DNA of 64,000 bases from Bacteroidota bacterium. GTDB lineage: Bacteria > Bacteroidota > Bacteroidia > Palsa-965. The stretch is taken from contig JAAFIA010000014.1 in assembly GCA_013298545.1 (NCBI GenBank), forward strand, positions 32 through 64,031. The letters are read 5' to 3'. The notes beneath the pieces were generated by a model. That model did not search any database and was not told the origin of the DNA. It worked only from the letters and a program-made list of their open reading frames with translations. This document shows positions 5,704-58,381 of the stretch, in pieces; positions within the stretch are counted from its first letter, which is position 1; every line of letters starts with the position of its first letter. Both the position numbers and the translations under genes were made by a program.

Positions 5704-5734
5704 GTCATTCAATTCGTTGATCGATCAAGTAGTT

Positions 5735-7705
5735 ATGAAACACCTATTCGCGATTTTACTCTGTGTGTTTGCTTTTTCTTGCAAAGCACAACCTGCTATG
5801 GAATTGACCACGACCAATAAGAAGGCTAAAAAGGCCTATGAATCGTCGTTGGTTTATCTCGATTCACGGCAGTACGACAAAGCCTTGGCAGAATTGAAAT
5901 CGGCACAGCAGGCAGATCCGAATTTTGTGGAGGCTTATATTTTGGAAGCCAATGTGCACATGGAGTTGCGGCAATGGGAAAAAGCAATTGAGCAATTTAA
6001 AAAATCGTTTGCCATCAATCCGGGTTTTTTTCCTGCTTCCTATTCAGATTGTGGTTATTGCGAAATGCGTGTAGGAAAATATGCGGAGGCCAAAGCCGAC
6101 TACGAAACATTTTTGAAAGTCATGCGCAAATCAACGCCTGAGAAAATGATTAACAATGCAAAGACACAAATTGCCAGTTGCGATTTTGCGATCAATGCCA
6201 TGGCGCATCCCGTTCCTTTTAATCCGAAAAGCATTGGTAATGGAATCAATTCCGATGCGTGTGAGTATTTTCCGAATGTTACTGCCGACGATCAGACTTT
6301 TCTCATTACACGCAATCGGCAAGAACGCGATCCGAATACAGGTGCATTGATGATGTCGCAAGAAGATTTTTACATCAGTTACCGCGACGATAATGGCAAG
6401 TGGAGTACGGCACAAAACATGGGCGGTCCGCTCAATTCTACCCGCAATGAAGGAGCGCCAAGCCTTTCTGCCGATGGCCGTTTTTTGTTTTTCGCGGCAT
6501 GCGATGAAGATTATATGGGCTATGGTCCAAACCGCCAAGGTTTTGGTAGTTGCGATATTTTCTTTTCGCAAAAACATGGTGGCATGTGGACACCGCCCGT
6601 AAATGTAGGCGCACCCATCAATACGGGCGCGTGGGAGACACAACCATCTTTTTCATCAGATGGAAAAACGTTGTATTTCATCAGTAGCCGCAATGGCGGT
6701 TTTGGAAGCAGCGATATTTACATGGCCGAACTGGGGCCAGATAGCAAATGGAGTCCGGTAGTCAATTTAGGTGCTGATATTAATACTGCAGGAAAAGAAG
6801 AAGCCGTTTTTATTCACCCCGATAACCAAACACTTTATTTTGCTTCCGATGGCCATACCGGAATGGGTGGTTTGGATCTGTATGTATGTCGCCGCCAAGC
6901 CGATGGAAAATGGGGCAAGCCCGAAAACTTAGGCTATCCAATCAATACGTTTAATGACGAAAGTGGATTGATCGTAAATGGTTTGGGCGACATTGCTTAC
7001 TACTCGTCTGACCGCGAAGGAACATTAGGTTGCGATGATATTTGGATGTTTGATCTTCCAAAATCGCTTCGTCCCACAACCGTTACCTTCATGCAAGGAA
7101 AAGTATTTGATAAAACAACTAAAAAACCCATTGGTGCCGGATTCGAGTTGGTTGATTTAGCAACAGGAAAAACTGCTATTGCTTCAACTTCCGATCCCGT
7201 TACAGGTGAGTTCACCGTTTGTATTCCAGTCAATGCAGATTATGCGTTGAATGTAAATAGCGAAGGCTATTGTTTTTATACAGAATCGTTCCGCTTGAAA
7301 GAATCGACCGACCCAAATAAACCGTATAAAATGGATGTGCCGCTTATTCCGCTTACTGTTGGCGGCGGTGGCGAATTGAAAAACGTTTATTTTGAAACGG
7401 GGAAATTTGATTTACGTCCAGAATCGGAAGTAGAATTGAATAAACTGATTGCGTTTTTGAATGCCAATCCAACAATGAAAATCGAACTTTCGGGACATAC
7501 CGATAATGTAGGCGATAAAAAAGCCAATCAAGTACTTTCCGAAAATCGTGCGCGTGCGGTTTATGTGTATCTGGTTTCGCATGGTGTTGATGCAAAACGT
7601 TTGTCCTACAAAGGGTATGGCGATACACAACCCAAAGTAGCGAACGACACGCCAGAACACCGTCAGATGAACCGCCGCACAGAGTATAAAATCACGGCAA
7701 TATAG
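5735..7705 (+). CDS. OmpA-family protein with N-terminal TPR, PD40 (TolB-like) repeats and C-terminal OmpA peptidoglycan-binding domain
   Basis: The ORF track begins at TTG 5717; the first ATG (MKHLF..., signal peptide) is at 5735. TPR-like helices; PD40 motifs (SADGRFLFFAA, SSDGKTLYFIS). C-terminal OmpA motif (ELSGHTDNVGDKKANQVLSENRARAV). Confidence 0.8.
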   Translation: MKHLFAILLCVFAFSCKAQPAMELTTTNKKAKKAYESSLVYLDSRQYDKALAELKSAQQADPNFVEAYILEANVHMELRQWEKAIEQFKKSFAINPGFFPASYSDCGYCEMRVGKYAEAKADYETFLKVMRKSTPEKMINNAKTQIASCDFAINAMAHPVPFNPKSIGNGINSDACEYFPNVTADDQTFLITRNRQERDPNTGALMMSQEDFYISYRDDNGKWSTAQNMGGPLNSTRNEGAPSLSADGRFLFFAACDEDYMGYGPNRQGFGSCDIFFSQKHGGMWTPPVNVGAPINTGAWETQPSFSSDGKTLYFISSRNGGFGSSDIYMAELGPDSKWSPVVNLGADINTAGKEEAVFIHPDNQTLYFASDGHTGMGGLDLYVCRRQADGKWGKPENLGYPINTFNDESGLIVNGLGDIAYYSSDREGTLGCDDIWMFDLPKSLRPTTVTFMQGKVFDKTTKKPIGAGFELVDLATGKTAIASTSDPVTGEFTVCIPVNADYALNVNSEGYCFYTESFRLKESTDPNKPYKMDVPLIPLTVGGGGELKNVYFETGKFDLRPESEVELNKLIAFLNANPTMKIELSGHTDNVGDKKANQVLSENRARAVYVYLVSHGVDAKRLSYKGYGDTQPKVANDTPEHRQMNRRTEYKITAI

Positions 7706-11497: not shown

Positions 11498-13279
11498 TTA
11501 TTCTGAAATGAATTTGCCTGTTACCAAACGTTTTTCATCCTGAACAATTTCGTAGAAATACAATCCAGCAGGATAATTTGCGGCATCGAGTGGAATGATG
11601 CTGCGGGTTAAATTCTCTTCGGTATAAACTACGCGTCCTTGCATATCATAAATACGAAGTGCAAGTGTATTCAAACCAAAAGCTGCAAAATTATCAATGC
11701 GAATTGCGCCAACATCGTTCATCGGATTTGGATAAACCTGTGCATTTAAAGTTGCAGAAGCAATTCCATTTGTGCTGAGCGGGAAAGCACCTTCATTGAC
11801 TGTAATGTTTTGATCGGCAGGAAGCGCGAGCATTTTATCAACGATTCCAGAAGGCCATTGAATGGTAACGCTATCAATACCTGTATTTTGGCCAAGACCG
11901 AAGTGCATTTCAAAACTGTTTTGTGTGCCATAGGCTTCGCCAGAACGAACTTCGCGTACTTGAATGCCAAATGCACCATAAATTTTTACGATAGCACCAA
12001 TTCCATTTAAACTACTAAAGCCATTTGCAGCACCGCCAACCAAATCGAATTTAATCCAATGATTAGTATTGCCTGCTGCAATTGATCCATTCATCCACAA
12101 ACGGTCGTTGCGGCTACTTGGTGAATTGTAGATGTTGCAGTAACTCGCATACACATCTAAAAATCCATCGTCGTTGAGATCACCAACTGCATGTGATGTG
12201 ATTTTGTTGGTATTGTAAACAAAGGGATTTGCTTGTAGGTTGAATGTACCATCGCCATTTCCGGTGTAGAGGTAATGTTCCGTTCCAGAGATCAACAAAT
12301 CAAGATTGCCATCGTTATCAAAATCATGGAACGTGGCATTCATTCCAAAATAAGTATCAGTAGGAGCAATACCGCATGTGCTGGTAACATCGGTAAATAC
12401 ACCTGACCCATCGTTGAGCATCATGTTGCTATTGACATCGTAGTTGAGTACAAAAGCATCCATATCGCCATCGTTGTCCACATCGCCCCAAGCGGTACTC
12501 CAACTTTGTGCACCGAGGCGTAAGTTGGATGTATTGGTTACATCTTGTGTAAATGTACCATTGCCATTGTTTAAGAAAACTTGATTGATACGACGCGCAT
12601 CGCTAGAATTAGAAACGTTTTGACGGCAGTGTGTAATGTATAAGTCAATCAAACCATCGTTGTTGATGTCTGTCCAGATCGAAGCATAGTTGCCGCTATT
12701 GTCGGAGGTTGGAAAAGTGGCTAAAGGCATGAGGCTTTGGTCGAAAGTCCAGCCCGTTCCATTGTTGTTGACGTAGATGTGCGACATGGCAACGTCGTTA
12801 CACACAAAGGCATCGATAAAGTGATCTGGTGTAACAGGTGCGAAGTTTGCGCCTTGAACGAAGATTGATCCTGCACCAGTAGCTGTCGTTACGTTTGTTC
12901 CGGTGTATGAAGTGGCCATATTGTCGGCAACCAAAATTCGGGTACTGCCGTTATTTCCCCAGAGCACATCATTTTTTCCGTTATTGTCCACATCGCCAAT
13001 ACACATGCCCCAAGGGCTTCCGAACGTATTGGTGAACGAGGATTCGGTAAATGTGCCATTGGATGTTCCTTGGTACTCGATATACATCGTGGTATTTTGC
13101 GATGCACGAATGATGTCATCTTTTCCATCGCCATTCATATCACAAACGCCAATCGCATTTCCGCTATGGAATGTTGTCGTAGGCAAAAGTGTTGTTTGAT
13201 TGGAAAAAGGAATTTGAGCAGTTACAGCGATTGGTAAAAAGACTGCAACGAAGCTACTGAGGTGTAGCATTTTTTTCAT
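11498..13279 (-). CDS. FG-GAP/VCBS-repeat (integrin-alpha-like) secreted protein with T9SS C-terminal sorting domain
   Basis: ATG at 13279 (MKKMLHLSSFVAVFLPIAVTAQ signal peptide); the track start 13375 is upstream. Repeated DxDxDGxxD/FG-GAP-like motifs (CDMNGDGKDDII, GDVDNNGKNDVL, DINNDGLIDLY, GDVDNDGDMDAF, HDFDNDGNLDLL, GDLNDDGFLDVY). C-terminal about 80 aa matches T9SS type-A CTD (VYPNP...GLYFYEI...). Confidence 0.7.
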   Translation of the reverse strand: MKKMLHLSSFVAVFLPIAVTAQIPFSNQTTLLPTTTFHSGNAIGVCDMNGDGKDDIIRASQNTTMYIEYQGTSNGTFTESSFTNTFGSPWGMCIGDVDNNGKNDVLWGNNGSTRILVADNMATSYTGTNVTTATGAGSIFVQGANFAPVTPDHFIDAFVCNDVAMSHIYVNNNGTGWTFDQSLMPLATFPTSDNSGNYASIWTDINNDGLIDLYITHCRQNVSNSSDARRINQVFLNNGNGTFTQDVTNTSNLRLGAQSWSTAWGDVDNDGDMDAFVLNYDVNSNMMLNDGSGVFTDVTSTCGIAPTDTYFGMNATFHDFDNDGNLDLLISGTEHYLYTGNGDGTFNLQANPFVYNTNKITSHAVGDLNDDGFLDVYASYCNIYNSPSSRNDRLWMNGSIAAGNTNHWIKFDLVGGAANGFSSLNGIGAIVKIYGAFGIQVREVRSGEAYGTQNSFEMHFGLGQNTGIDSVTIQWPSGIVDKMLALPADQNITVNEGAFPLSTNGIASATLNAQVYPNPMNDVGAIRIDNFAAFGLNTLALRIYDMQGRVVYTEENLTRSIIPLDAANYPAGLYFYEIVQDEKRLVTGKFISE

Positions 13280-13383
13280 GGTTGGTGTTTTTGAATACGT
13301 AATATTACGAAAAGAATTTGATTGAGAAATTGTATTTTTCATGAAATGTCTTTTTGTTATGTGTAAATTAGGCACTTGTAATT

Positions 13384-15351
13384 ATGGCTCAACAACTCAT
13401 CACCTACTTCAACCGTTTTAAAGCATTTGTGATTTTAGCGGTTGCTATACTTTTAACTGCTTCTGCCAGTATTTTCATTGGCGATAAAGCGGAGGCAAAA
13501 ACATTTCATACGCCTGCCGAACGCGCGCGCTTGCACGAGATGTTACAAACTTTACCTACCGATACAAATTTGTGGTTTGGTGGTTCTGGGAAATGTGCGG
13601 GATGTCATGGACATGATCCGGCTGGAAACGCGTTCATTACAAGCACAGGCGAAGATGTGAATATTGCTGATGCTTGGGCCGGAACGATGATGGCCAATTC
13701 GGCCAAGGATCCATTTTGGCGCGCAAAAGTGAGTCACGAAATTTTGGTCAATCCCGGACTTCAGCAGGATATTGAAAATTTATGTACACGTTGCCACGCG
13801 CCTGTTGGTCGTTTTGAGGCTGAGTACACGGGTCAAATGCCCTATTCGATTGCGGCTATGGAACAAGATTCGCTTGCACTCGATGGGGTGAATTGTAGCG
13901 CATGCCACCAACAATTCGATACGTTACTGGGGCGCAATTTTTCGGGCAATTTGCATTATAAACGCAAACAAGTTTGGGGGCCATACACCGATCCGTTTAC
14001 TGGGCCAATGCAATTTTTTGCCGGATTTACACCCAATTACGGCCCACACGTTACGCGGGGTGGATTTTGCGGCGGTTGCCATACACTACAAACCAATACG
14101 GTTGATTTATCGGGGCAGTTGACAGGACAAGTATTTACCGAACAAGCAACGTATCACGAATGGCTCAATTCGCAGTATAGCGATACGGCTGCAGCAACGG
14201 CGCGTTCTTGCCAGAGTTGCCATCTTCCACGCATTACCGATCCGGTAGATATTGCAACCAATTATCCTTTTCTCGATAGTCGTACACCGTTTGGCAAACA
14301 TTACCTTGTTGGTGGCAATGCGTTTATGTTGAAATTGATGCGCAACAATATGTCTGCAATTGGTGCAACATGCCAACCCGAAAATTTCGATACAGCAATT
14401 GTGCGCACGATGCGTATGTTGCGCGATAGTACAGTGAATTTGACATTGACAGAGGCGAATCGTACAAGCGATACCGTATTTTTCGATGTGCGTGTATTGA
14501 ATAAAGCAGGACATAAATTTCCGTCAGGTTATCCGGCACGTATTGCCTGGATTGAGTTGGTGGTCATGGATGCAACCTTAGATACACTTTTTGCATCGGG
14601 TTTGCCTGATGGGAATGGCGATGTACGCAACCGCGATTTGCCATACGAGCCACATTACAATCAAATTACGTCATCGTCTCAAGTTCAGATTTACGAAATG
14701 GTTTTGGGTGATGTTGCTGGAAATGAAACAACGGTTTTGGAACGTGCCGATACGTCTTTGAAAGATAACCGTCTGCCACCAGTTGGCTTTACTACATCGC
14801 ACAATGCTTATGATACCTGTATCATTACACCTGATGCGCTTGGCGATACTGATTTTAATCGCGTGGGCATGACGCAAGGAACGGGAGCAGACGAAGTACA
14901 TTACCATGTTCCGCTTGCTGGATATACCGGCGCGTTGAATGTTTCTTGTCGGGTGTGGTATCAATCAGTTCCGCGTCGTTGGTTGGGCAATATGTTTAGT
15001 TTCTCATCGCCACAAATCACCGCGTTTCAGAATATGTACAATGCGGCTGATCTTGCTCCAGAATTGGTAGCGCAAGTGGTTTCGGGACCAATTATTACTT
15101 CGACGCAACCCGTTGCGCAACCGCAAATACGCATGTATCCAAATCCTACCGCCAATGGACAAGTTCAAGTTTCTGGTCTAGTCAATTCAGACTTAGTTTC
15201 CATCCAGATTTTTGATTTGACCGGACGTTTGGTTGCTCAACCGTCGGTAAATAATTTTGATGGAACAATTGAATTGCCAGCGCGTGGTTTGTACTTAGTA
15301 GCCATTGAAACGAAGAAAACGCGTATCGTGCAGAAAGTCTTGTGGCGCTAG
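13384..15351 (+). CDS. Multiheme c-type cytochrome (five CxxCH) with T9SS C-terminal sorting domain
   Basis: Signal/TM anchor. Heme motifs CAGCH, CTRCH, CSACH, CGGCH, CQSCH. C-terminal MYPNPTANGQVQVSGL...RGLYLVAIETKKTRIVQKVLWR resembles a T9SS type-A CTD. Confidence 0.65.
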   Translation: MAQQLITYFNRFKAFVILAVAILLTASASIFIGDKAEAKTFHTPAERARLHEMLQTLPTDTNLWFGGSGKCAGCHGHDPAGNAFITSTGEDVNIADAWAGTMMANSAKDPFWRAKVSHEILVNPGLQQDIENLCTRCHAPVGRFEAEYTGQMPYSIAAMEQDSLALDGVNCSACHQQFDTLLGRNFSGNLHYKRKQVWGPYTDPFTGPMQFFAGFTPNYGPHVTRGGFCGGCHTLQTNTVDLSGQLTGQVFTEQATYHEWLNSQYSDTAAATARSCQSCHLPRITDPVDIATNYPFLDSRTPFGKHYLVGGNAFMLKLMRNNMSAIGATCQPENFDTAIVRTMRMLRDSTVNLTLTEANRTSDTVFFDVRVLNKAGHKFPSGYPARIAWIELVVMDATLDTLFASGLPDGNGDVRNRDLPYEPHYNQITSSSQVQIYEMVLGDVAGNETTVLERADTSLKDNRLPPVGFTTSHNAYDTCIITPDALGDTDFNRVGMTQGTGADEVHYHVPLAGYTGALNVSCRVWYQSVPRRWLGNMFSFSSPQITAFQNMYNAADLAPELVAQVVSGPIITSTQPVAQPQIRMYPNPTANGQVQVSGLVNSDLVSIQIFDLTGRLVAQPSVNNFDGTIELPARGLYLVAIETKKTRIVQKVLWR

Positions 15352-16854: not shown

Positions 16855-17901
16855 CTACTTCCACGGATTGCTAAACCGCTCATCGCTTATGAATGCAGAA
16901 TCGGTGAGTGTGAGCAGGAAAGCGAGTAATTGTTCTTTCTCGATTGCGGTAAGATGCACACCGCCATTTTTTGCAGCCGTCATTTTAGAGTCAACATTTT
17001 TTCCTGCGTGTACGCCTTCGCTGTAAAAATCAATGACCTCCCGTAGCGTTGCAAAACGTCCGTCGTGCATGTATGGCGCTGTAAGTGCGACATTGCGTAA
17101 GGATGGAATTTTGAATTGTCCCCATTCTTGTTGCTTTCCCGTAATTGCACCACGTCCACCATCCAGCGGCAATATTTTATCAAGACCATTGTTGCTGAAT
17201 TTTCCGGTGGTGCCAAGTGCGTTGCCGTCGGTGGTGTGGCAATGCAAGCAATCGCCCTTCGTCATGTCGTTGGCGATGACAAAACCTTCGGCTTCATCAT
17301 GCGTGAAAAAGGCTTTGCGTTGCGTCATGCCATCGTATTTTGAGCGGTAAGAAATCAGGGTACGCTCAAATTGTGCAATTGCAAAAGCAATCAATACACT
17401 ATCTATTTTCTGATTGCCAAAAACGGTTTCAAATTGTTTCTTGTAAAATGGATTTCGACTGATGCGTATGGCTGCAAGTTTCCAATCGAGGTCCATTTCG
17501 TTGTGCGCGCTTACAGGTTGAAAAACTTGCGTTTCGATGCTTGCGGCGCGGCCATCCCAGAAAAAATTTGAATACCATGCTAAGTTAAATAAAGGCATGG
17601 TGTTGCGTTTCATCAATTCACCATCAATTCCTTTGCTGAATTTTTTTCCACCGTCGGTAAAAGCAAATTCTTGTTTGTGGCACGAGGCGCAAGAAATAGA
17701 ACTATCGCGGCTTAAAACCGGATCATAAAATAAATATCGACCGAGCAACGCCCCTTCATTGCTAACTGGATTTTCTGCCGAAGAAGACATAGGCGGGAAA
17801 AAACGCAGTTCGGGAAATTGGTAGGGCGTTGTGGTCTGCTGGGCCACAAAACCCACACAGACCACAACGGTAAAAAGGATCAGAAACGAAATGTGCCGCA
17901 C
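16855..17901 (-). CDS. Di-heme cytochrome c peroxidase (CCP/MauG family)
   Basis: Two CxxCH motifs (CASCH, CLHCH) with CCP-family spacing; signal peptide. Apparent GTG start 6 nt downstream of the upstream gene's stop. Confidence 0.8.
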   Translation of the reverse strand: MRHISFLILFTVVVCVGFVAQQTTTPYQFPELRFFPPMSSSAENPVSNEGALLGRYLFYDPVLSRDSSISCASCHKQEFAFTDGGKKFSKGIDGELMKRNTMPLFNLAWYSNFFWDGRAASIETQVFQPVSAHNEMDLDWKLAAIRISRNPFYKKQFETVFGNQKIDSVLIAFAIAQFERTLISYRSKYDGMTQRKAFFTHDEAEGFVIANDMTKGDCLHCHTTDGNALGTTGKFSNNGLDKILPLDGGRGAITGKQQEWGQFKIPSLRNVALTAPYMHDGRFATLREVIDFYSEGVHAGKNVDSKMTAAKNGGVHLTAIEKEQLLAFLLTLTDSAFISDERFSNPWK

Positions 17902-17907
17902 AGAATA

Positions 17908-18828
17908 TTAATCTTCAAGGAAGATGACAAATGTTTCGGTCATCAAATTCGATTTTACTTTTAGGTAATACGTGCCGCGTGGTTGATCGCTTAAATTAAG
18001 TGTTGCGTTTGCGGAATTGACCGCATACGTTTTAATCAATTGTCCATTGGTACTAAACAAATACACTTCTTCGATGAATTGCGTATTGGCCAGTTGTGTT
18101 GTTTCGATATTTACAATTCCGGTTGTGGCATTTGGAAACGCATGGATATTATCAACCTGTTGCCCGCCTTTAGCGGTATGTTGAATGGTAATATGAGCAG
18201 ATAAATTATCAATCATCCAACCTTCGCGCACATCGTTGATGGAATCGGTTTTTAAGGTGTAGCGAAGCATGAGTGTGTCTTGCTGCATTTGTACATTGTA
18301 GAAAAAACAAAGCCAAATGTCGCGCCATGTCGTGTCGCGACCGCTGAATGCAAATTCGTTGGTGGCGTTGATGGTATCGGCATTGGCTTGGTTGTATCCG
18401 TAAAAATTATATACAAACGGATTGTTGAATACATTGAACCAAGTTTGTCCGCTATCGAGCGAGTATTCAACGATTCCACCTTCGCGGCCCGGATCCATAT
18501 CGAGTTTTTGTTTCCATTGGATGGCTAAAACACCGGGATAAAAATTTCCGTTATCGAGCGTGAAACTGAACCGCGATGTGTTGTTGAGCGGAATGGGGTT
18601 GATGGTGTCGGTAACCATAACATTGGGAACGGTTGACGCCGCATTGAAAATTGTTTTTTGTGGCGGCCCAATTTGCCAGACATTATTCGTGTCAGGGTCG
18701 ATGTCGATGAAAACGGAATTTAAAATAGACGTATCAGCACCATCGAAGTATTGGTAGTAATCGTATTGCGCTTTGGCTGGTGCAACGATTAAAAAACAGA
18801 GTAGGGTTTGGAGTAGCAGTTTTTTCAT
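17908..18828 (-). CDS. Secreted protein of unknown function with T9SS C-terminal sorting domain
   Basis: ATG at 18828 (MKKLLLQTLLCFLIVAPAKAQ signal peptide); C-terminal about 80 aa CTD-like (FPNATTGIVNIE...GTYYLKVKS...). Confidence 0.55.
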   Translation of the reverse strand: MKKLLLQTLLCFLIVAPAKAQYDYYQYFDGADTSILNSVFIDIDPDTNNVWQIGPPQKTIFNAASTVPNVMVTDTINPIPLNNTSRFSFTLDNGNFYPGVLAIQWKQKLDMDPGREGGIVEYSLDSGQTWFNVFNNPFVYNFYGYNQANADTINATNEFAFSGRDTTWRDIWLCFFYNVQMQQDTLMLRYTLKTDSINDVREGWMIDNLSAHITIQHTAKGGQQVDNIHAFPNATTGIVNIETTQLANTQFIEEVYLFSTNGQLIKTYAVNSANATLNLSDQPRGTYYLKVKSNLMTETFVIFLED

Positions 18829-18962
18829 GGGTCGTGTTTTTAGTGATGCAAAGATGATGGTGTTTTTAGGTAAAAACAAATCCGTCTTTGAAAATCTTAC
18901 GCATTCAAAAGCAAAAAGCCAGTCGTTATGCTGACTGGCTTTTTGCTAAATGGTGTATATGC

Positions 18963-19623: not shown

Positions 19624-21369
19624 TTAAAAAGATACGGTGTATTTCCAGAATTTGAATGTGCGGAGGTTTTCTTCTTTGGTTAAACTTACTTTCCCGCCCG
19701 TGGCTTGTCCTACACGGTTTACAGCACTGCTAGCGAGGTCAAATCCGGTTACCTTTTTGTTTTCGTCGGCATTCATGGCCATCACCTCTTGAGCTGTTTC
19801 GTCGTCATCGTTTGTTGGGTTTTTGCTTTTCGATGATCCGTCAAGTGTCTTTTTCAAGCGACGCGCAACATATTGTGCCGGTGAAATGTAATTGGGTTGA
19901 TAAGCTAAATTGGTATTAGGGTCGTAAGGTTCTATGACGCCTTCACGAATTTGATTGAGGCCAGTTGGGTTATTGAATAAAGCCTGAACATTTTTCTCGG
20001 GCATGTTGTATGCGACAAAACGACTTGGGTTGTTATTTTCAGGTGCAACGATGGGTTGCAGTTGGTTGTTTGGATTGTAAATGCGTTTTGATTTGTCTGA
20101 CTGATCGGGCGCGTTAATCGTATTGTTGGCGATTTGTGCTGGAGTTTGTGGAGCTTGATTAGGTACGATTTGCGGAATGGTTTTCGACTTTGTTTTGAGG
20201 CTGTCGTTGGTGGCAACTTGATCGGTACCCGAATTGGTTTGTTGCGAATTGAAGAAGAAAATTCCAACCAACAGCAAAACTGCCGCCGCCGCTGACCAAC
20301 GCGTAACCGTCCACCACGCAATGCCCGCGCGCCCGTCGTGATAAAGCGCCGCTTTGTCAGGAAATACAATGCTGGTATCTGGTTGCAAACGTGTTTGTGC
20401 AAGCAGCGTCATTTCGTGTTGCATCTCAGGATGCGAACTGAGGTATGCGTCGAATACGTTTTGTTCAATGGCATTGAGTTCGCCATCGAAAGCAGCTACG
20501 GCATATTCGTCGAAATTCGATGCCGTAATAAGCGTTGTTTGTTTTAACGAAGCTTTATCGGCAAAAGCAATGGCTTCGGGCTGAAGAATGGTTTGACGGA
20601 AAGATTCAACAATGGCTTGCTTTTCGGGATTGTTGTTTAAGAATTGTGTAAACGCTGTAAGTTCATCGGCGTTTAATTCCTGATCGAGAAAAGCAACAGC
20701 ATATTCTTCAAAATTCGATTCCTGAATAGTCGTGGTAACCGTTTTCTTTAACGCATTTTTATGGGGGAAAACAAGATCGCTTTCGGGAACAAAACGTGTT
20801 TGTTCAAACAGTGAAAATTCGGCTTGTTGTTCGGGATGTGTTGCAAGAAACTGTTGAAAGATCGCTTGCTCTTCGCTTGTCAATTCACCTTCAATAGCTT
20901 GTACAGCAATCGTGTCGAAATTTTCAACGGTAAGCACAAAAGGAGATGATTTTTTCAAGGCATCTTTTCCTTCAAATACAATTTCAGCATCGGCTTCTAA
21001 GCGCGTTTGCTGAATGAGGTGAAAGGTGCTACGGTGTTGCGGATTGGCTTGAAGAAAAGCTTCTAATTCCTTTTTCTGATTTTCATGCAACAAACCTTCG
21101 AGCGAAGCAATACAAAACCATTCGATGTTGTTTTCAGAAACAGGCTCCGTTGTTTCGAGCGATTTTTTAAGCGAATTTTTATTTGGGAAAACGATTTCTT
21201 CCGCGTTGAATTCTTCGTTAAATGATGCATCCACAAAACTGTCGAACAATTCGCGGAGATCAGCGTTGTTTTCCAGAAACTGGAAAAGTGCCGAAGTCTG
21301 CTCCATGTTCAAGCGCCCCTCGTAAAAATCGAGGAAAAATGCTTCACAGTTTTGACGGTTAATATTCAT
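19624..21369 (-). CDS. Membrane anti-sigma-factor-like protein with five tandem about 60-aa cytoplasmic repeats, one TM helix and N/P/Q-rich periplasmic tail
   Basis: Immediately downstream (6 nt) of the ECF sigma gene. Repeats each ending (V/I)FPxKxALKK(S/T). TM helix WWTVTRWSAAAAVLLLVGIFFF. Confidence 0.55.
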   Translation of the reverse strand: MNINRQNCEAFFLDFYEGRLNMEQTSALFQFLENNADLRELFDSFVDASFNEEFNAEEIVFPNKNSLKKSLETTEPVSENNIEWFCIASLEGLLHENQKKELEAFLQANPQHRSTFHLIQQTRLEADAEIVFEGKDALKKSSPFVLTVENFDTIAVQAIEGELTSEEQAIFQQFLATHPEQQAEFSLFEQTRFVPESDLVFPHKNALKKTVTTTIQESNFEEYAVAFLDQELNADELTAFTQFLNNNPEKQAIVESFRQTILQPEAIAFADKASLKQTTLITASNFDEYAVAAFDGELNAIEQNVFDAYLSSHPEMQHEMTLLAQTRLQPDTSIVFPDKAALYHDGRAGIAWWTVTRWSAAAAVLLLVGIFFFNSQQTNSGTDQVATNDSLKTKSKTIPQIVPNQAPQTPAQIANNTINAPDQSDKSKRIYNPNNQLQPIVAPENNNPSRFVAYNMPEKNVQALFNNPTGLNQIREGVIEPYDPNTNLAYQPNYISPAQYVARRLKKTLDGSSKSKNPTNDDDETAQEVMAMNADENKKVTGFDLASSAVNRVGQATGGKVSLTKEENLRTFKFWKYTVSF

Positions 21370-21374
21370 GTTGG

Positions 21375-21860
21375 TTATACTACTTTTTCAATGCTACCAA
21401 TGTAATTTTTCAGAAACGTTCGTGCTCTGAAAATATAAACTTTCACTTGTGCTTCGCTAAGTCCGGTTATTTCGCCAATTTCTTCATACGAATAGCCTTC
21501 ATAGTCGCGAAGTAAAACCACCGAGCGTTGAATCTCGGGCAGTTTACCCAATGCTTCCTGCAAAATTTCTTTCAGATCGCTATACTGCTTCGTATGCGAG
21601 AGCGCAATCATAGGCGCTTCATCCATCGAACCTTGACGTTGATCTTTGCGCAAGGCATCGATCATGGTTCGATAGGCCGTCGTAAACATATACGACTTGG
21701 CGTTTTTGGCTTCTGTATCCGATACTTTGAGCCACAGTTTCTCAAAAGTATCCTGTACAATGTCCTTCGCTTTGTCCTTATCCTTTACATTCTTCAGAAT
21801 AAAGCGGTACAGGTTGTCGGCGTACAAGTCCACACAGCGATTGAACTCTTCTGCAGTCAT
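21375..21860 (-). CDS. ECF-subfamily RNA polymerase sigma-70 factor
   Basis: 161 aa; region 2 (DIVQDTFEKLW) and region 4 HTH (SYEEIGEITGLSEAQVKVYIFRAR). Confidence 0.85.
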   Translation of the reverse strand: MTAEEFNRCVDLYADNLYRFILKNVKDKDKAKDIVQDTFEKLWLKVSDTEAKNAKSYMFTTAYRTMIDALRKDQRQGSMDEAPMIALSHTKQYSDLKEILQEALGKLPEIQRSVVLLRDYEGYSYEEIGEITGLSEAQVKVYIFRARTFLKNYIGSIEKVV

Positions 21861-21968: not shown

Positions 21969-22415
21969 TTAAACTTGCTTCATTAATTGCGAATAGGCCT
22001 CTTCAGGAGTTTGCAAATCGCTTAACACATTATTAAGTGTTGGGTTGGTTAGGGTAAAACACCATACATTGGATAGGATCAGATTATCCAAGATTTTGTC
22101 GGTAAGTGCTATATCTTGAAAAAAGAAACTCGTTTTAAAACGTAAATCGCCATCGGTATAATCAAACTCGAAATTACCCACATTTAAGCCATAATTTATT
22201 CGAGTAATTAATTCCGCAATCTGGGATCTTTTATCAACTCTAATCTTAGGTTGAAATATCGAATAGACTGAAATACGTTCTTCACGTAGAATAAAATCTA
22301 CGATGAGATTAAATTTTATTCCTTCATGATTTATTGGAATCAAAAAAGCCCCCTCCGAGATAGAGTCAAATTGCCATCCCTTATGATTAAAATATCGAAT
22401 CAAGGACTCGCGCAT
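21969..22415 (-). CDS. Hypothetical protein, possibly YbjN-like fold
   Basis: 148-aa ORF with ATG start, 8 nt after the upstream ORF's stop; lies in an AT-rich (about 33% GC) islet. The family call rests on weak pattern similarity only. Confidence 0.45.
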   Translation of the reverse strand: MRESLIRYFNHKGWQFDSISEGAFLIPINHEGIKFNLIVDFILREERISVYSIFQPKIRVDKRSQIAELITRINYGLNVGNFEFDYTDGDLRFKTSFFFQDIALTDKILDNLILSNVWCFTLTNPTLNNVLSDLQTPEEAYSQLMKQV

Positions 22416-22423
22416 GTGTAGGA

Positions 22424-22999
22424 TTATTTATGAATTGATAAACCCTTTCCGATAAAATCCGAAAAGTCAAATACGGTATGATCATTTGAGTATGGTAATG
22501 GGTAGGGTATGTATTTTTTGGCGATGGAGAAATAGTTTGAAAGTTTCTGATAGGGGCTAAGAATTTCTATGTCAGCCGAAGGGAAATTAGTTTTTAAGAA
22601 AGCATGAATTTTCTCGATCTGAGGCGAAAATGTTACATCAAAGAAAGTGTCCGCTGTTGGATAATGATCAGAGGTGAGCTTTTCTATTGGAATGATTGGT
22701 GTGTGCTCTAAGTAGAATCCTCTTTTTATTTCAGTAACCATGTATTCTTGATAAGGGTTATCAAGAATAAGTTTTTTTAGCGAAATCTTTCGGTCTATAA
22801 AAGCGCGAAGTTTTGACGGAGGTACCTGAAAAATCAACCAAGTATTACTCTCATTTGAATAATCTACCCAATAGAATAAATATAGATTATTGTTGCGTAC
22901 ATCAAAGAACATAGAAAGCTCTGGCCCATCGTGGTTAATGAGATCGCCGACTCGGATTAAGTTTGCGCCAAGCGTATTTGCTTTATCATGCAACATCAT
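22424..22999 (-). CDS. Hypothetical protein (AT-rich islet, middle gene)
   Basis: About 191-aa ORF; ATG at 22999 overlaps the 3' end of the upstream ORF by 14 nt; no recognisable motif. Confidence 0.45.
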   Translation of the reverse strand: MMLHDKANTLGANLIRVGDLINHDGPELSMFFDVRNNNLYLFYWVDYSNESNTWLIFQVPPSKLRAFIDRKISLKKLILDNPYQEYMVTEIKRGFYLEHTPIIPIEKLTSDHYPTADTFFDVTFSPQIEKIHAFLKTNFPSADIEILSPYQKLSNYFSIAKKYIPYPLPYSNDHTVFDFSDFIGKGLSIHK

Positions 23000-23435
23000 C
23001 AAATATATTTATTCTTTTTATAATTCGTTTACTCAAATCTGCGTTTTCATATTCATGAAAATCAAAATGGCTCGTCTCTTCATTAAAATCTCCTGCCAAA
23101 CCATCTGTTTCATGCAATTGCAAATGAGCGATGTAATCTCCTTTATCTCTTCGAAATTTAACTTGAAGTTTAGGTGGCTTATTTGCTAAAACGGCCTTGT
23201 AACGAGCTTTTGCTTCTGTCTCATTTTTATATAAAGATAACCCGTAGCCGGAACACATTTTGTCTGATTCATCGAGTACTTTGGCTGGTGGATATTGGAT
23301 TAACCATAAGGGTTTGAAATCATTTTCATGTGCTTGAGCATGCACCCATCGAAATGCCAACATCGAAACACCAGAAAAATTTGCAGCAGGACAGTGATCA
23401 AATTGCCTCAAAAAATCTTTATACTTAAGCTCCAT
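22986..23435 (-). CDS. Hypothetical protein (AT-rich islet, first gene)
   Basis: About 149-aa ORF from ATG 23435 (MELKYKDF...); no recognisable motif. Confidence 0.4.
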   Translation of the reverse strand: MELKYKDFLRQFDHCPAANFSGVSMLAFRWVHAQAHENDFKPLWLIQYPPAKVLDESDKMCSGYGLSLYKNETEAKARYKAVLANKPPKLQVKFRRDKGDYIAHLQLHETDGLAGDFNEETSHFDFHEYENADLSKRIIKRINIFDDVA

Positions 23436-23583
23436 ACAAAAAAACAACAATTAAAAATTAAACCTTCCATCATCTATTCCCTGCAAAAGTATAACATTCG
23501 AATACGCCATGTCAAGTCCCTAGCCTCCAAAGCGATCTAACTCGTTGACTATCTGCACAATATTTTTCTAGGCAGATTCTCCC

Positions 23584-24546
23584 TTAAACATCGCCATCCC
23601 GTTTCATCGGCCCTTTGCCCCAATCTGCCAATTCTTCTGCCGACCACAATTCTGGAAAAAACACATTCAACTGTAACGATGGTGGCAAATATTGTTTCCA
23701 ATTTGTTCCGCCAGTAGCGGCAATATCTTCCGGTTTCTTTTCTAAATAATGCGAGGCCGACCAAACGTGTTGTAGTTTCCAATTGACGTTCACATTTGCA
23801 TCGAGCCAGCGCAGGGCTTTTTTAAGCTCTTCTGTTTTTTCAACTTCCGGCAAATTGCGCCAAAGAGCAGCAAGATTTGTATCTCTATTTTCTTGACCCA
23901 ATGCTAAAAATGTAGCCCCATACTTTTCTTCAAATTGTTGAAGGGTGAGCGTCTTTTTACCTGAACCATCTTCGGTAGCACCCGAACGCCAATAAATATG
24001 ATCAAACAAATCGGTGAGGGACGATTGCGAAGAAACTTTATCGCGCGATTTTGCGGCTACCAAATTGATGAAATCCGTTGAACGAATTTCAATCATGCGG
24101 TATTGGCCCGATTGGAATCCGCTTGCAGGAGTTAGTGAAAGTCGGTACTTCAAAAATTGTTCGCGTTCCATGCCATCGCGCATAATCCGAAACGATGTAA
24201 TGAGCGCATCGAAATAATTCGCAATACGCAATACGCGTGTACGGAAAAACTCACCTGTCAATGTTCCTGATTTTCCCCGCTCCGCCAATTGATCATATTC
24301 CAACTGACACAGTTTAAAATACAATTCTGTAATCTGATGGTACATGATGAAAATCTTCTCATCCGGAAAAGCCGTGCGTGGTTTTTGCAACGTGAGCAAC
24401 GTATCGAGTTGAATATAATCCCAGTAATTCAGATAATCAGCATAAATCATGCTGTCTAAATAGACACCTAAATCTTGTTGCTTGTCGTTGAGTTTGGTTT
24501 GAAGCTGTTGGAGCTTATCAAGAATTTCTGGAGAAAAATCGGCCAT
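23584..24546 (-). CDS. kynA: Tryptophan 2,3-dioxygenase
   Basis: TDO signature YIQLDTLLTLQKP...DEKIFIMYHQITELYFKL; ATG at 24546 (the track TTG start is at 24573). Confidence 0.75.
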   Translation of the reverse strand: MADFSPEILDKLQQLQTKLNDKQQDLGVYLDSMIYADYLNYWDYIQLDTLLTLQKPRTAFPDEKIFIMYHQITELYFKLCQLEYDQLAERGKSGTLTGEFFRTRVLRIANYFDALITSFRIMRDGMEREQFLKYRLSLTPASGFQSGQYRMIEIRSTDFINLVAAKSRDKVSSQSSLTDLFDHIYWRSGATEDGSGKKTLTLQQFEEKYGATFLALGQENRDTNLAALWRNLPEVEKTEELKKALRWLDANVNVNWKLQHVWSASHYLEKKPEDIAATGGTNWKQYLPPSLQLNVFFPELWSAEELADWGKGPMKRDGDV

Positions 24547-27600: not shown

Positions 27601-27782
27601 CGCGATGCCGGAATCTGACTCGCACTGTTAAAAACAATAAACGAAGGCACATGCGATTGTTTATTGATCACAACGAGTTTACTCTCTGGACAAAGTTTCG
27701 CAGCTTCATTTCCAGTAAACTGATTTTGTGCAGCTAAAACAGATGCAAGCAAAATACACGATGAGGTAAAAAGTTTGTACAT
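24699..27782 (-). CDS. M4 (thermolysin-like) zinc metalloprotease with PKD-like repeats and T9SS C-terminal sorting domain
   Basis: Signal peptide from ATG 27782. HExxH...E motif (VCGHEFTHGVTE ... GALNESFSDVFG). C-terminal AYPNPTSDVFTLDIQ...KGVYLIQVQ CTD. Confidence 0.8.
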   Translation of the reverse strand: MYKLFTSSCILLASVLAAQNQFTGNEAAKLCPESKLVVINKQSHVPSFIVFNSASQIPASRIQTHLRPVLQMQFADQWQQYRQQKDELGFTHTRFNQLYAGIPVQGGEYLIHERNGRVESANGMWFEGITLNTSPALSESAALSKALLNIGAQQYKWENPADESLLKEIRNNTSATYYPKGELVIVAANGDIFKRDFHLAWKFDVYASAPMSRNYIYVDAQTGEIVHKQNRIHEADVAGTANTMYSGTQNIICDSNAGSYRLREAGRGMGIRTLNLNNGTNTASAVDFTNGTTNWTSTANDDNAAYDAHWGAEKTYDYYQIQHGRNGIDGNGMLMISYVHYSNNYDNAYWDGTSMTYGDGSQQPGGFNPLTAIDVCGHEFTHGVTENTAGLDYQDESGALNESFSDVFGTAIEFYSKPVGNFLIGEEITVNANSALRSMSNPNQYGDPDCYTGTNWYTGTADNGGVHTNSGVQNYWFYLMCQGGSGTNDLNNAFNVTGIGISDAGRIAFRNLSVYLVNTSQYADARTYAIQSAEDLFGACTPQVTTTANAWYACGVGPVYSPTVNAAFTANITSSCSVPATVVFTNNSTNAANATWNFGDNTTSNTFNPSHVYTQAGTYNVSLSVNSTCGADSIVQSGYIVINPPNAPTGTGANSCQPATLNLSAVGPGSLAWYTQAIGGTQVATGGSYTTPFLNNTTTYYVESQVAQPPGNVGPVNSNFGTGGQHNNTSTQYLEFTVLQNCTLATADVNAGAAGNRTVTLWDNAGNQLQQVVINPPAGNSTVTLNIPLTPGSYRIGGTQMNLYRNNSGANYPYTLNGAVNITGSSAGGAFYYYLYNWGITLGACTSPRTPVIASIGNQVTAYNASAYDTVCTNTTAPFALTGGSPAGGTYSGPGVTNGIFDPAVAGQGTHTITYTYIDGNNCAGTATQTIFSSICLGVQGQGAITNIQAYPNPTSDVFTLDIQLASSQTVGISIVDLLGQTVYNQQHQLQAGSTQIPMNTERWAKGVYLIQVQTAQGMVTRRIVVR

Positions 27783-27896
27783 GGGTGTGTGGAATTGGTG
27801 TTTTCTAATAGGGATTAATCCATTGATTTTCCACAAGATATAGCGAACTTTTCACATAATGTACGGGCAAGTGAAAAATCCGTCAAAAACCCCGAT

Positions 27897-34334: not shown

Positions 34335-34336
34335 TG

Positions 34337-58353: not shown

Positions 58354-58381
58354 CAGCCCCAAAACACGGAACTGTCCGTTT

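What the first reader, a model, noticed from the sequence alone, without database searches (positions are those of the whole stretch)
13384..15351. Five-heme c-type cytochrome carrying a T9SS C-terminal sorting domain
A 655-aa protein has an N-terminal signal/anchor and five canonical CxxCH heme-binding motifs spread over the first 300 residues. Its C-terminal segment of about 80 aa has the hallmarks of a type-A T9SS CTD (YPNP...G, ...GLYLV...). That predicts a multiheme cytochrome exported to the cell surface or medium by the type IX secretion system. Surface multiheme cytochromes are best known from metal-reducing Proteobacteria, so a T9SS-routed one in a Bacteroidota aerobe is unusual. It could mediate extracellular redox chemistry. 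It lies divergent to a T9SS FG-GAP protein and about 1.5 kb from a periplasmic cytochrome c peroxidase.
Basis: partly seen in the sequence, partly recalled or inferred. Interest (0 to 1): 0.6.

Follow-up and report, generated by a model that had tools for sequence, protein, structure and literature searches.

The report
T9SS-exported five-heme cytochrome of Bacteroidota
This gene encodes a five-heme electron-carrying protein with a tag for the Bacteroidota outer-membrane secretion system (T9SS); it represents a large, uncharacterised family that may let common aerobic Bacteroidota do redox chemistry outside the cell.

Summary
ORF 13384..15351 (+) encodes 655 aa with a Sec-type signal peptide and five CxxCH motifs. 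All 15 motif residues are invariant in 84 sequences. The extreme C-terminal domain passes both curated T9SS type-A CTD models. The same window encodes PorU, two PorV, PorP/SprF, PorX and GldJ, plus cbb3 oxidase genes, so the host has a T9SS and makes c-type cytochromes.

The core is not c554-, NapC- or MtrC-like. Its only significant solved-structure match is the pentaheme cytochrome c552 of Thermochromatium tepidum. It also shares a signature loop with the Geobacter polysulfide reductase MccSep/ExtKL, but lacks MccSep's selenocysteine and heme-ligating cysteine.

The family is large: over 4400 proteins and at least 591 species genomes, almost all uncultured Bacteroidota, all carrying the CTD. 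Full-length relatives at 33-37% identity occur in Gammaproteobacteria and Sulfurovum; they lack the CTD and several have lipoprotein signals.

A divergent FG-GAP/ASPIC T9SS gene is adjacent in 22 of 83 related loci. The nearby MauG/MbnH-like gene is not conserved.

Most likely this is a surface or secreted electron-transfer cytochrome. Its substrate and electron source are unknown. No paper in the library links multiheme cytochromes to the T9SS.

The parts
13384..15351 (+). Complete gene: 655-aa pentaheme c-type cytochrome with a T9SS type-A CTD
   Evidence: ORF listing; Pfam and NCBIfam scans; homologs
13384..13497 (+). Sec signal peptide, residues 1-38, with predicted cleavage after AEA
   Evidence: Read from the translation: basic n-region, 20-residue hydrophobic core, AxA site, no Cys. 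Homologs keep an A-x-A at the same column. No signal-peptide predictor was available.
13501..14430 (+). Mainly alpha-helical heme-binding cap, about residues 40-349, carrying all five CxxCH motifs
   Evidence: AF2 core model with pLDDT 87.8 and pTM 0.89; Foldseek match to 5ze8
13594..13608 (+). Heme motif 1, C71-A-G-C-H75
   Evidence: Invariant in 84 of 84 sequences
13783..13797 (+). Heme motif 2, C134-T-R-C-H138
   Evidence: Invariant in 84 of 84 sequences
13894..13908 (+). Heme motif 3, C171-S-A-C-H175
   Evidence: Invariant in 84 of 84 sequences
14068..14082 (+). Heme motif 4, C229-G-G-C-H233
   Evidence: Invariant in 84 of 84 sequences
14209..14223 (+). Heme motif 5, C276-Q-S-C-H280
   Evidence: Invariant in 84 of 84 sequences
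14431..15099 (+). Beta-sandwich (Ig-like) stem plus a family-specific C-terminal extension, about residues 350-572
   Evidence: Secondary structure of the models. No Pfam model covers it. It holds the conserved motifs QVQIYE, KDNRLxPxGF and DxDFN.
14500..14541 (+). Signature loop N373-K-A-G-H377-K-F-P-S-G-Y383-P-A-R386
   Evidence: The profile aligns it to the c552 loop NLQPHAMPTGAPFRN and to the MccSep loop NHAGHSIPDGU325PTPN. N, G, H, P, G, P and R are invariant or nearly so.
15133..15348 (+). T9SS type-A C-terminal sorting domain, residues 584-655
   Evidence: TIGR04183 at 42.4 bits (cutoff 23) and PF18962 at 36.1 bits (cutoff 27). 8glk_D superposes at TM 0.83. The profile hits the NucA CTD at E 4.8e-6. 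Present in 83 of 84 homologs; the exception is cut by its contig end.
13280..13383 (.). AT-rich 104-bp divergent intergenic region shared with the FG-GAP gene
   Evidence: Sequence. The intergenic gap is also 104 bp in the JGI gene calls of the 97%-identical locus L001.
11498..13279 (-). Divergent neighbour and candidate partner: FG-GAP_3 + UnbV_ASPIC + type-A CTD protein. The likely true start is MKKMLHL at 13279; the listed ORF runs to 13375.
   Evidence: Pfam scan. A homolog lies next to the cytochrome gene in 22 of 83 related loci, in several arrangements, and most of these neighbours carry a CTD.
37446..41360 (-). Context: T9SS sortase PorU, which would remove the CTD
   Evidence: NF033707 at 1343.7 bits against a cutoff of 420
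34866..37404 (-). Context: two PorV outer-membrane shuttle paralogs (36151..37404 and 34866..36041)
   Evidence: NF033710 at 501.6 and 350 bits against a cutoff of 250
30966..32519 (-). Context: T9SS response regulator PorX
   Evidence: NF052313 at 854.1 bits against a cutoff of 300
41588..44154 (+). Context: PorP/SprF (41588..42544) and GldJ (42625..44154)
   Evidence: PF11751 at 220 bits; TIGR03524 at 475.6 bits against a cutoff of 458.2

Best explanation
The gene encodes a secreted pentaheme c-type cytochrome.

Shown by sequence and model:
- It has a Sec signal peptide.
- It has a helical cap with five invariant CxxCH sites.
- It has an Ig-like beta-sandwich stem whose invariant loop (N..GH.FP.G.P.R) reaches back toward the cap. 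This is the c552/PHC fold, here with an added C-terminal subdomain.
- It ends in a type-A T9SS sorting domain.

Inferred pathway:
- The apoprotein crosses the inner membrane by Sec.
- Hemes are attached and the protein folds in the periplasm.
- The CTD is recognised by the T9SS encoded in the same window, and the holo-cytochrome crosses the outer membrane.
- PorU removes the CTD.
- The protein ends up either anchored on the cell surface or released.

Inferred role: outside the cell its heme chain works as an electron-transfer module rather than a MccSep-type enzyme. The Bacteroidota branch has exactly five invariant non-motif histidines, enough for bis-His ligation of all five hemes. The protein would pass electrons between ambient or cell-derived reductants and extracellular acceptors such as Fe(III), Mn(IV), humics, Cu(II) or O2. 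It may act together with the co-secreted FG-GAP/ASPIC neighbour. The physiological donor and acceptor are unknown.
For: Motifs and their conservation: five CxxCH against 0.007 expected, with 0 of 100000 shuffles reaching five. All 15 motif residues are invariant in 84 sequences, as are H118, H258, H306, H377, H424 and M103.

CTD: it scores above both curated cutoffs, sits at the extreme C-terminus, structurally matches a CTD caught in the T9SS, and is kept in 83 of 84 homologs. Homologs of the whole core at 33-37% identity in Gammaproteobacteria and Sulfurovum lack it, and several of those read carry a lipobox. So the CTD is a lineage-specific targeting device.

Machinery in the same window: PorU, two PorV, PorX and GldJ, PorP/SprF, and cbb3 CcoP/CcoG plus a DsbD_2 thiol transporter.

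Fold: 5ze8 is the only significant PDB match (E 2.1e-16, TM 0.65 on the target, probability 1.00). Profile hits to 5ze8 (E 0.005) and weakly to MccSep fall on the signature loop.

Against MccSep-type catalysis: the position equivalent to the selenocysteine is Y in 82 and F in 2 of 84 sequences. In ten of the CTD-less homologs from the core-only search it is F, Y, I or H. There is no conserved non-motif cysteine.

Partner: the FG-GAP/ASPIC gene is directly adjacent in 22 of 83 loci, in divergent, tandem and downstream arrangements across Flavobacteriales, Saprospiraceae and unclassified Bacteroidia. Nearly all FG-GAP hits within 8 kb are the immediate neighbour.
Against: - There is no experimental localisation. 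A CTD is necessary for T9SS export but does not prove it.
- No outer-membrane electron conduit (porin-cytochrome) appears in the window or in the homolog loci inspected. A link from a surface cytochrome to respiration is therefore unexplained.
Across the wider family only H306, H377 and H424 are invariant and M103 nearly so. One or two hemes could have unusual or open coordination, which would favour catalysis.
- H258 is replaced in 2 of 37 metagenomic homologs.
- The nearest functionally characterised relative, MccSep, is an enzyme, and c552 has no assigned function (PMC11976967).
- In most loci the gene stands alone with no informative neighbours.
Confidence: 0.5

Rival explanations
1. It is an extracellular catalytic oxidoreductase. 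One heme would act as an active site served by the invariant Ig-domain loop, as in MccSep, acting on a small or insoluble substrate such as polysulfide/S0, peroxide or N-oxyanions.
For: The closest characterised relative of the fold, MccSep, is a polysulfide reductase whose active site is built by the same loop (preprint 10.1101/2025.11.18.688581). The loop and the KDNRLxPxGF motif are the most conserved parts of the protein. Only three non-motif His are invariant across the whole family. CTD-less relatives occur in sulfur oxidisers such as Sulfurovum, Thiotrichaceae, Cocleimonas and Thioalkalispiraceae.
Against: The NF040886 ExtKL model scores 20 bits against a cutoff of 250. The selenocysteine position is Tyr or Phe, and is variable (F, Y, I, H) in the wider family. 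No conserved extra cysteine could replace C239. Five invariant extra His in the Bacteroidota branch fit five six-coordinate hemes.
Confidence: 0.25
2. It is a surface metal reductase for nutrient acquisition: it reduces Fe(III) or Cu(II) at the cell surface to aid uptake, rather than serving respiration.
For: The hosts are aerobes or microaerobes with cbb3 oxidase, where Fe(III) is insoluble. The gene is usually solitary, not in a respiratory operon. From my own knowledge and untested here: methanotrophs display copper-regulated surface multiheme cytochromes, and Methylomicrobium/Methylococcaceae carry homologs of this family.
Against: No iron- or copper-uptake genes are linked in the loci examined. 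No regulator or Fur-box analysis was possible. The electron source at the surface is as unexplained as in the main model.
Confidence: 0.15
3. It is a periplasmic cytochrome. The C-terminal beta-sandwich would be only a structural Ig-like domain, or a vestigial CTD that is not used for export.
For: The solved and characterised relatives are periplasmic (c552; MccSep). No T9SS-secreted c-type cytochrome was found in four literature searches.
Against: The CTD passes two curated models and keeps the PNP...G...G motifs. It is retained in 83 of 84 homologs down to 43% identity. It is absent precisely from non-Bacteroidota homologs. T9SS machinery is encoded in the window.
Confidence: 0.07

Closest known systems
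Pentaheme cytochrome c552 of Thermochromatium tepidum (PDB 5ZE8)
   Same: It is the only significant solved-structure match (Foldseek E 2.1e-16, probability 1.00, TM 0.65 on the target). It shares the five-heme helical cap and the Ig-like beta-sandwich, and the loop H-x-Phi-P-x-G-x-P-x-R aligns.
   Different: Identity is 17%. c552 is periplasmic, about 385-435 aa, has no CTD and lacks the roughly 150-aa C-terminal extension. Where c552 has the W..SMH histidine, this family has M102-M103. The function of c552 is itself unassigned (PMC11976967).
MccSep / ExtKL (GSU2937-2936), the multiheme selenoprotein polysulfide reductase of Geobacter ('sPHC')
   Same: It has a five-heme cap plus an Ig-like stem. 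The loop NHAGHSIPDG-U-P aligns to NKAGHKFPSG-Y-P. The NCBIfam ExtKL model gives a weak hit over hemes 2-5.
   Different: The score is far below cutoff (20 against 250). Here there is no Sec or Cys at the U325 position and no heme-ligating cysteine. MccSep is a periplasmic tetramer, whereas this protein carries a T9SS CTD and has a larger core.
MtrC/OmcA/MtrF outer-surface decaheme cytochromes of Shewanella
   Same: The proposed role is analogous: a multiheme protein displayed outside the outer membrane.
   Different: They are not homologous at family level (PF22113 at 22.8 bits against a cutoff of 30). They have ten hemes, are lipoproteins exported by the T2SS, and are wired to the periplasm through the MtrAB porin-cytochrome. 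No such conduit is seen here.
T9SS type-A CTD cargo (for example F. johnsoniae NucA, P. gingivalis gingipains and HBP35)
   Same: The sorting domain is the same (TIGR04183/PF18962). It matches 8glk_D and gingipain CTDs. It uses the same Sec-then-T9SS route.
   Different: Known cargo are hydrolases, adhesins and toxins. No cargo with covalently bound c-type hemes turned up in the literature searches.
CTD-less 'multiheme c-type cytochrome' lipoproteins of Gammaproteobacteria and Sulfurovum (for example P0201, P0279, P0320)
   Same: They share the full-length core at 33-37% identity, with the same five CxxCH motifs, loop and KDNRL motifs.
   Different: They have no CTD. Several of those read have a lipobox signal instead. 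They are equally uncharacterised, and their gene contexts are uninformative.
Archaeal extracellular cytochrome nanowire AvECN and the 'lPHC' GSU2801
   Same: The literature relates the c552/PHC fold to AvECN and defines a long PHC variant (PMC11976967). AvECN is a precedent for this fold working outside the cell.
   Different: This is a lead only.

Membership tests
T9SS type-A CTD cargo (TIGR04183 / PF18962) | C-terminal domain scores above the curated cutoff | tested here: met
   TIGR04183 at 42.4 bits (cutoff 23) and PF18962 at 36.1 bits (cutoff 27), over residues 584-652
T9SS type-A CTD cargo (TIGR04183 / PF18962) | The domain lies at the extreme C-terminus and has the CTD beta-sandwich fold | tested here: met
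   It ends 3 residues before the stop codon. It superposes on the NucA CTD in a T9SS complex (8glk_D) with TM 0.83 and rmsd 1.9 A.
T9SS type-A CTD cargo (TIGR04183 / PF18962) | N-terminal Sec signal peptide | tested here: met
   Read from the sequence: K/R n-region, 20-residue hydrophobic core, AEA|K site, no Cys. No predictor was run.
T9SS type-A CTD cargo (TIGR04183 / PF18962) | The host encodes the T9SS machinery | tested here: met
   PorU, two PorV, PorX and GldJ score above equivalog cutoffs; PorP/SprF matches Pfam
T9SS type-A CTD cargo (TIGR04183 / PF18962) | T9SS-dependent export with CTD cleavage | not testable with these tools
   Needs fractionation of wild type against a T9SS mutant
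Multiheme c-type cytochrome | Several CxxCH sites, beyond chance and conserved in orthologs | tested here: met
   Five sites against 0.007 expected. All 15 residues are invariant in 84 sequences and in 32 sequences spanning three phyla.
Multiheme c-type cytochrome | Covalent heme attachment and defined axial ligands | not testable with these tools
   Candidate distal ligands are H118, H258, H306, H377, H424 and M103. Model coordinates could not be read.
c552 / PHC pentaheme family (5ZE8-like) | Five-heme helical cap plus Ig-like stem fold | tested here: met
   Foldseek to 5ze8 gives E 3.5e-12 for the full model and 2.1e-16 for the core, with TM 0.64-0.65 on the target. No other PDB hit has E below 0.001.
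c552 / PHC pentaheme family (5ZE8-like) | Stem loop N-x3-H-x-Phi-P-x-G-x-P | tested here: met
   Profile alignment to 5ze8 residues 287-342 and MccSep residues 306-346
MccSep / ExtKL polysulfide reductase (NF040886) | Model score at or above the cutoff | tested here: not met
   20 bits against a cutoff of 250
MccSep / ExtKL polysulfide reductase (NF040886) | Sec or Cys at the U325 position | tested here: not met
   The aligned residue is Y383: Y in 82 and F in 2 of 84 sequences
MccSep / ExtKL polysulfide reductase (NF040886) | Conserved heme-ligating cysteine (C239) | tested here: not met
   The only non-motif cysteines (C330, C479, C522) are not conserved
MtrC/OmcA/MtrF (PF22113) | Domain II/IV model at or above the gathering score | tested here: not met
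   22.8 bits against 30
NapC/NirT (PF03264) and NrfH (TIGR03153) | Model at or above the cutoff | tested here: not met
   19.3 bits against 24.1, and 17.9 against 134.2
Cytochrome c554 (PF13435) | Model at or above the gathering score, with the tetraheme c554 fold | tested here: inconclusive
   It scores 24.2 bits against 20.8 over hemes 1-3. However, no c554 structure appears among the Foldseek hits. This is motif-level similarity only.

The most novel reading that the evidence does not exclude
Bacteroidota have their own route for putting multiheme cytochromes outside the cell. The T9SS would replace the lipoprotein/T2SS and porin-cytochrome routes of Proteobacteria. This pentaheme family, often paired with a co-secreted FG-GAP/ASPIC beta-propeller, would be the terminal module of a previously unrecognised extracellular electron-exchange capacity (mineral, humic or metal redox). 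That capacity would be widespread in aerobic freshwater, soil and activated-sludge Flavobacteriales and Saprospiraceae.
Probability: 0.2. Interest if true: 0.8.

Novelty: new variant of a known kind. Interest (0 to 1): 0.6.

Why it matters
Cytochrome-based extracellular electron transfer is understood almost entirely from Shewanella and Geobacter. Bacteroidota are among the most abundant heterotrophs in lakes, soils, oceans and wastewater plants, and they are not regarded as electroactive.

A conserved, T9SS-tagged pentaheme family found in hundreds of Bacteroidota species gives a concrete, genetically tractable test of whether they carry out extracellular redox chemistry. It would also be the first T9SS cargo with covalently bound hemes.

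The result further shows that the c552/PHC fold, which so far has one enzyme and one orphan structure, has a much larger 'long' branch spanning three phyla, with alternative targeting signals (CTD or lipobox).

Tried and rejected
- An exact-sequence lookup of the window protein found nothing. The 97%-identical P0001 was used instead.
- Model coordinates cannot be read by any tool. Heme-ligand geometry and the position of Y383 and R386 relative to a heme therefore could not be measured.
- MccSep-type catalysis was rejected: there is no Sec or Cys and no C239 equivalent.
- A 'catalytic Tyr383' idea was dropped, because the position is F, Y, I or H in the CTD-less homologs read.
- MtrC, NapC and NrfH membership was rejected on score.
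- A link to the MauG/MbnH-like gene was rejected. It is absent from the closest relatives (L004-L015). It appears 3-6 kb away in 11 other loci, all labelled Flavobacteriales or Chryseobacterium. The upstream 323-aa CTD protein has no homolog in any locus and no MbnP signature.
- Gene contexts of the proteobacterial and Sulfurovum homologs were uninformative.
- ORF-cluster analysis of neighbourhoods was too noisy from shadow ORFs.
- Four literature searches for multiheme or CXXCH together with T9SS or type IX secretion returned nothing relevant.
- The c552 structure paper (PMID 29691716) is not held.
Full report
**1. Observation**

The ORF sits at exactly 13384..15351 on the + strand and encodes 655 aa. 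It carries five CxxCH motifs: C71AGCH, C134TRCH, C171SACH, C229GGCH and C276QSCH. These use 10 of the 13 cysteines. From composition, 0.007 motifs are expected, and none of 100000 shuffles reached five (maximum 2).

The N-terminus has a basic n-region, a 20-residue hydrophobic core and an AEA|K site, with no cysteine. It is therefore a Sec signal peptide rather than a lipoprotein signal. This was read from the sequence; no predictor was available.

Residues 584-652 match TIGR04183 at 42.4 bits (cutoff 23) and PF18962 at 36.1 bits (cutoff 27). In the AlphaFold model this domain superposes on the NucA CTD captured in the T9SS translocon complex (8glk_D: TM 0.83, rmsd 1.9 A, 27% identity). A family profile hits the same chain at E 4.8e-6.

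**2. Host context**

The window itself supplies the machinery the interpretation needs:

| Gene | Coordinates | Model | Score |
|---|---|---|---|
| PorU sortase | 37446..41360 | NF033707 | 1343.7 bits (cutoff 420) |
| PorV | 36151..37404 | NF033710 | 501.6 bits (cutoff 250) |
| PorV paralog | 34866..36041 | NF033710 | 350 bits (cutoff 250) |
| PorX | 30966..32519 | NF052313 | 854.1 bits (cutoff 300) |
| GldJ | 42625..44154 | TIGR03524 | 475.6 bits (cutoff 458.2) |
| PorP/SprF | 41588..42544 | PF11751 | 220 bits |

At the right end lie cbb3-oxidase genes: CcoP/FixP (62123..63313), CcoG/FixG (60703..62106) and a DsbD_2 thiol transporter (59505..60239). The organism is therefore a T9SS-proficient Bacteroidota that respires oxygen and matures c-type cytochromes.

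Only three ORFs in the 64 kb contain CxxCH: this gene (5), the MauG-like gene (2) and CcoP (1). No porin-cytochrome-like conduit is visible.

**3. The family**

A search of 5.8 billion proteins gave 4403 hits at E <= 1e-5 among 8000 candidates. The best 120 are all 570-690 aa and 47-97% identical. Where a source names them, the name is only 'hypothetical' or 'T9SS type A sorting domain-containing protein', from Bacteroidota.

The 80 loci kept are almost all MAGs of Flavobacteriales, Saprospiraceae, Cryomorphaceae or unclassified Bacteroidia, from lakes, activated sludge, groundwater and soil.

In 84 sequences all 15 CxxCH residues are invariant. So are H118, H258, H306, H377, H424 and M103. 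The CTD is present in 83 of 84; the exception is cut by a contig end.

**4. What the core is**

Pfam and NCBIfam give only motif-level cytochrome hits:
- c554 is just above cutoff.
- c7, MtrC, NapC, NrfH and ExtKL are all below cutoff.

AlphaFold models were built for the full protein (pLDDT 79.7) and for the core alone with a three-phylum alignment (pLDDT 87.8, pTM 0.89). They show a helical cap (about residues 40-349) holding the five heme sites, followed by a beta-sandwich region (about 350-567).

The only significant solved-structure match is the pentaheme cytochrome c552 of Thermochromatium tepidum (5ZE8). It scores E 3.5e-12 for the full model and 2.1e-16 for the core, with probability 1.00 and TM 0.64-0.65 on the target. 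Every other hit has E above 0.001 and is a generic Ig-like match.

A core-only profile finds 5ze8 by sequence (E 0.005) and, weakly, the Geobacter multiheme selenoprotein MccSep (9wt8). In both cases the match falls on one loop:

| Protein | Loop sequence |
|---|---|
| This protein | NKAGH377KFPSGY383PAR |
| c552 | NLQPHAMPTGAPFRN |
| MccSep | NHAGHSIPDG-U325-PTPN |

In MccSep this Ig-domain loop carries the catalytic selenocysteine next to a His/Cys-ligated heme 2. The protein is a periplasmic tetrameric polysulfide reductase (preprint 10.1101/2025.11.18.688581).

A cable-bacteria study groups ExtKL/MccSep ('sPHC') and GSU2801 ('lPHC') into a pentaheme 'PHC' family. It notes structural homology to c552 and, citing Baquero et al. 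(2023), to the archaeal extracellular nanowire AvECN. It also states that c552 has no assigned function (PMC11976967).

The window protein is thus a long member of the c552/PHC fold class. It is not a MccSep:
- The ExtKL model scores 20 bits against a cutoff of 250.
- The selenocysteine position is Tyr or Phe.
- No non-motif cysteine is conserved.

**5. The wider family and the meaning of the CTD**

An exhaustive HMMER search with the core alone (residues 40-572) found cluster representatives as follows:

| E-value threshold | Representatives |
|---|---|
| <= 1e-3 | 2770 |
| <= 1e-10 | 1661 |
| <= 1e-30 | 586 |

Many of these match the whole core at 35-40% identity, are only 540-610 aa long and end where the core ends. 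They have no CTD, and several start with a lipobox (for example P0201 'LFAC', P0209 'LTAC', P0217 'LSAC').

A search seeded with P0201 returned homologs whose source names, where given, place them in Gammaproteobacteria (Thiotrichaceae, Cocleimonas, Woeseiaceae, Thioalkalispiraceae, Methylomicrobium/Methylococcaceae) and Sulfurovum. They are annotated only as 'multiheme c-type cytochrome'.

The five heme sites, the loop (N, G, H, P, P, R), E422, H424, Q435, Y437 and K460-D-N-R463 are invariant across both branches. The CTD is therefore a lineage-specific targeting module added to an older core. This argues that it is functional rather than incidental.

In ten of these CTD-less homologs the selenocysteine-equivalent position is F, Y, I or H, so it is not a catalytic residue.

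Only H306, H377 and H424 (with M103 nearly so) are invariant family-wide. H118 and H258 are invariant only in the Bacteroidota branch. The five extra histidines there fit five bis-His hemes. However, the ligation of one or two hemes is not settled, because no tool exposes model coordinates.

**6. Neighbourhood**

The FG-GAP/ASPIC CTD gene most likely starts at 13279 (MKKMLHL...). This matches the 593-aa JGI gene call in the 97%-identical locus and leaves a 104-bp AT-rich divergent intergenic region.

A homolog of it is the immediate neighbour of the cytochrome gene in 22 of 83 related loci:
- It is present in every locus at 51% identity or more.
- It recurs in Saprospiraceae and other Flavobacteriales in divergent, tandem and downstream arrangements.
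- Almost every FG-GAP hit within 8 kb is directly adjacent.
- Most of these neighbours carry a CTD.

This is moderate evidence for a functional pair of co-secreted proteins. The background copy number of such genes was not measured.

The MauG/MbnH-like gene scores 241 bits on TIGR04039, below the cutoff of 363. It is absent from the closest relatives and appears 3-6 kb away in 11 other loci, all labelled Flavobacteriales or Chryseobacterium, so I treat its proximity as coincidental.

In the main Flavobacteriales clade, and in Sulfurovum and Cocleimonas, the cytochrome gene is solitary among housekeeping genes.

**7. Mechanism**

Shown:
- The signal peptide
- The heme sites
- The fold
- The CTD
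- T9SS genes in cis

Inferred:
- Sec export and periplasmic heme attachment and folding
- CTD-dependent passage through the T9SS
- CTD removal by PorU
- Surface anchoring or release

For the role outside the cell I favour an electron-transfer module. This includes a possible surface metal-reductase reading, listed separately as a rival. The reasons are that the Bacteroidota branch has just enough invariant histidines for five six-coordinate hemes, and that the MccSep catalytic residues are absent.

A catalytic role remains a serious rival at 0.25. The only characterised relative is an enzyme, the loop is extraordinarily conserved, and ligand conservation is incomplete family-wide.

The main weakness of any respiratory reading is the absence of a visible outer-membrane electron conduit. 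Diffusible reductants, a partner protein or non-respiratory chemistry would be needed.

A purely periplasmic location is unlikely (0.07).

**8. Literature and novelty**

No paper in the library holds 'multiheme cytochrome' with 'type IX secretion', or 'multiheme' with 'T9SS'. Two broader searches that included CXXCH, TIGR04183 or Por_Secre_tail found no paper linking the two topics.

One survey of Danish wastewater MAGs predicts secreted multiheme proteins in Bacteroidota, especially Saprospiraceae, and suggests an unrecognised capacity for extracellular electron exchange. It does not mention the T9SS or this family (PMC11495043).

I therefore rate the finding a new variant of known kinds: a PHC-fold multiheme cytochrome combined with T9SS cargo. 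It is real, widespread and uncharacterised. Interest is 0.6. It is not categorically new, but it gives a direct genetic handle on whether abundant aerobic Bacteroidota perform cytochrome-based extracellular redox chemistry.

Noticed in passing
window 30966..44154: A cluster of T9SS genes: PorX (30966..32519), two tandem PorV paralogs (34866..36041 and 36151..37404), long-form PorU (37446..41360), PorP/SprF (41588..42544) and GldJ (42625..44154). A PorE-like OmpA protein (5717..7705) scores below its cutoff (338 bits against 600).
   Followed up: partly
window 16855..18879 (-): A MauG/MbnH-like di-heme enzyme (TIGR04039 at 241 bits, below the cutoff of 363) lies 7 bp downstream of a 323-aa T9SS-CTD protein with no MbnP signature. 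The pairing of a periplasmic protein-modifying heme enzyme with a secreted cargo is unexplained. The 323-aa protein has no homolog in any of the 83 related loci.
   Followed up: partly
window 19624..21860 (-): An ECF sigma factor (21375..21860) is followed by a 581-aa protein with no Pfam or NCBIfam hit. That protein contains about five repeats of a motif like 'F.QFL..NPE....F.L..QTRL.P......F..K..LKK'. It may be an unusual repeat-bearing anti-sigma factor.
   Followed up: no
window 59505..63313 (-): cbb3-type oxidase accessory and subunit genes (DsbD_2 transporter, CcoG/FixG, CcoP/FixP) indicate high-affinity aerobic respiration. A tRNA lies at 58382..58456 (+).
   Followed up: partly
window 24699..27836 (-) and 55828..58230 (-): Further T9SS cargo: a 1045-aa M4 thermolysin-like peptidase with PKD and Ig_7 domains and a CTD, and an 800-aa protein whose only recognisable domain is the CTD.
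   Followed up: no
window 11498..13375 (-): The mechanical ORF for the FG-GAP/ASPIC gene over-extends by 32 codons. The likely start is ATG at 13279 (MKKMLHL...), matching the 593-aa gene call in L001.
   Followed up: yes
window 22001..24000, 32001..34000 and 58001..62000: GC content drops to 0.37-0.40 in these segments, against about 0.44 elsewhere. The cause was not examined.
   Followed up: no
L066 (JBLHIB010000047.1): A CTD-bearing homolog at 45% identity sits on a contig labelled as a Gammaproteobacteria MAG. This is probably a mis-binned Bacteroidota contig.
   Followed up: no
P0203 (1919 aa), P0199 (1142 aa), P0241 (1189 aa), P0188 (941 aa), P0212 (1028 aa): Some family representatives embed the whole pentaheme core inside much larger proteins. 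The fusion partners were not examined.
   Followed up: no
L085 4863..7547 (-): In Cocleimonas sp. KMM 6892, the CTD-less homolog is divergent from a second, 894-aa multiheme cytochrome gene.
   Followed up: no
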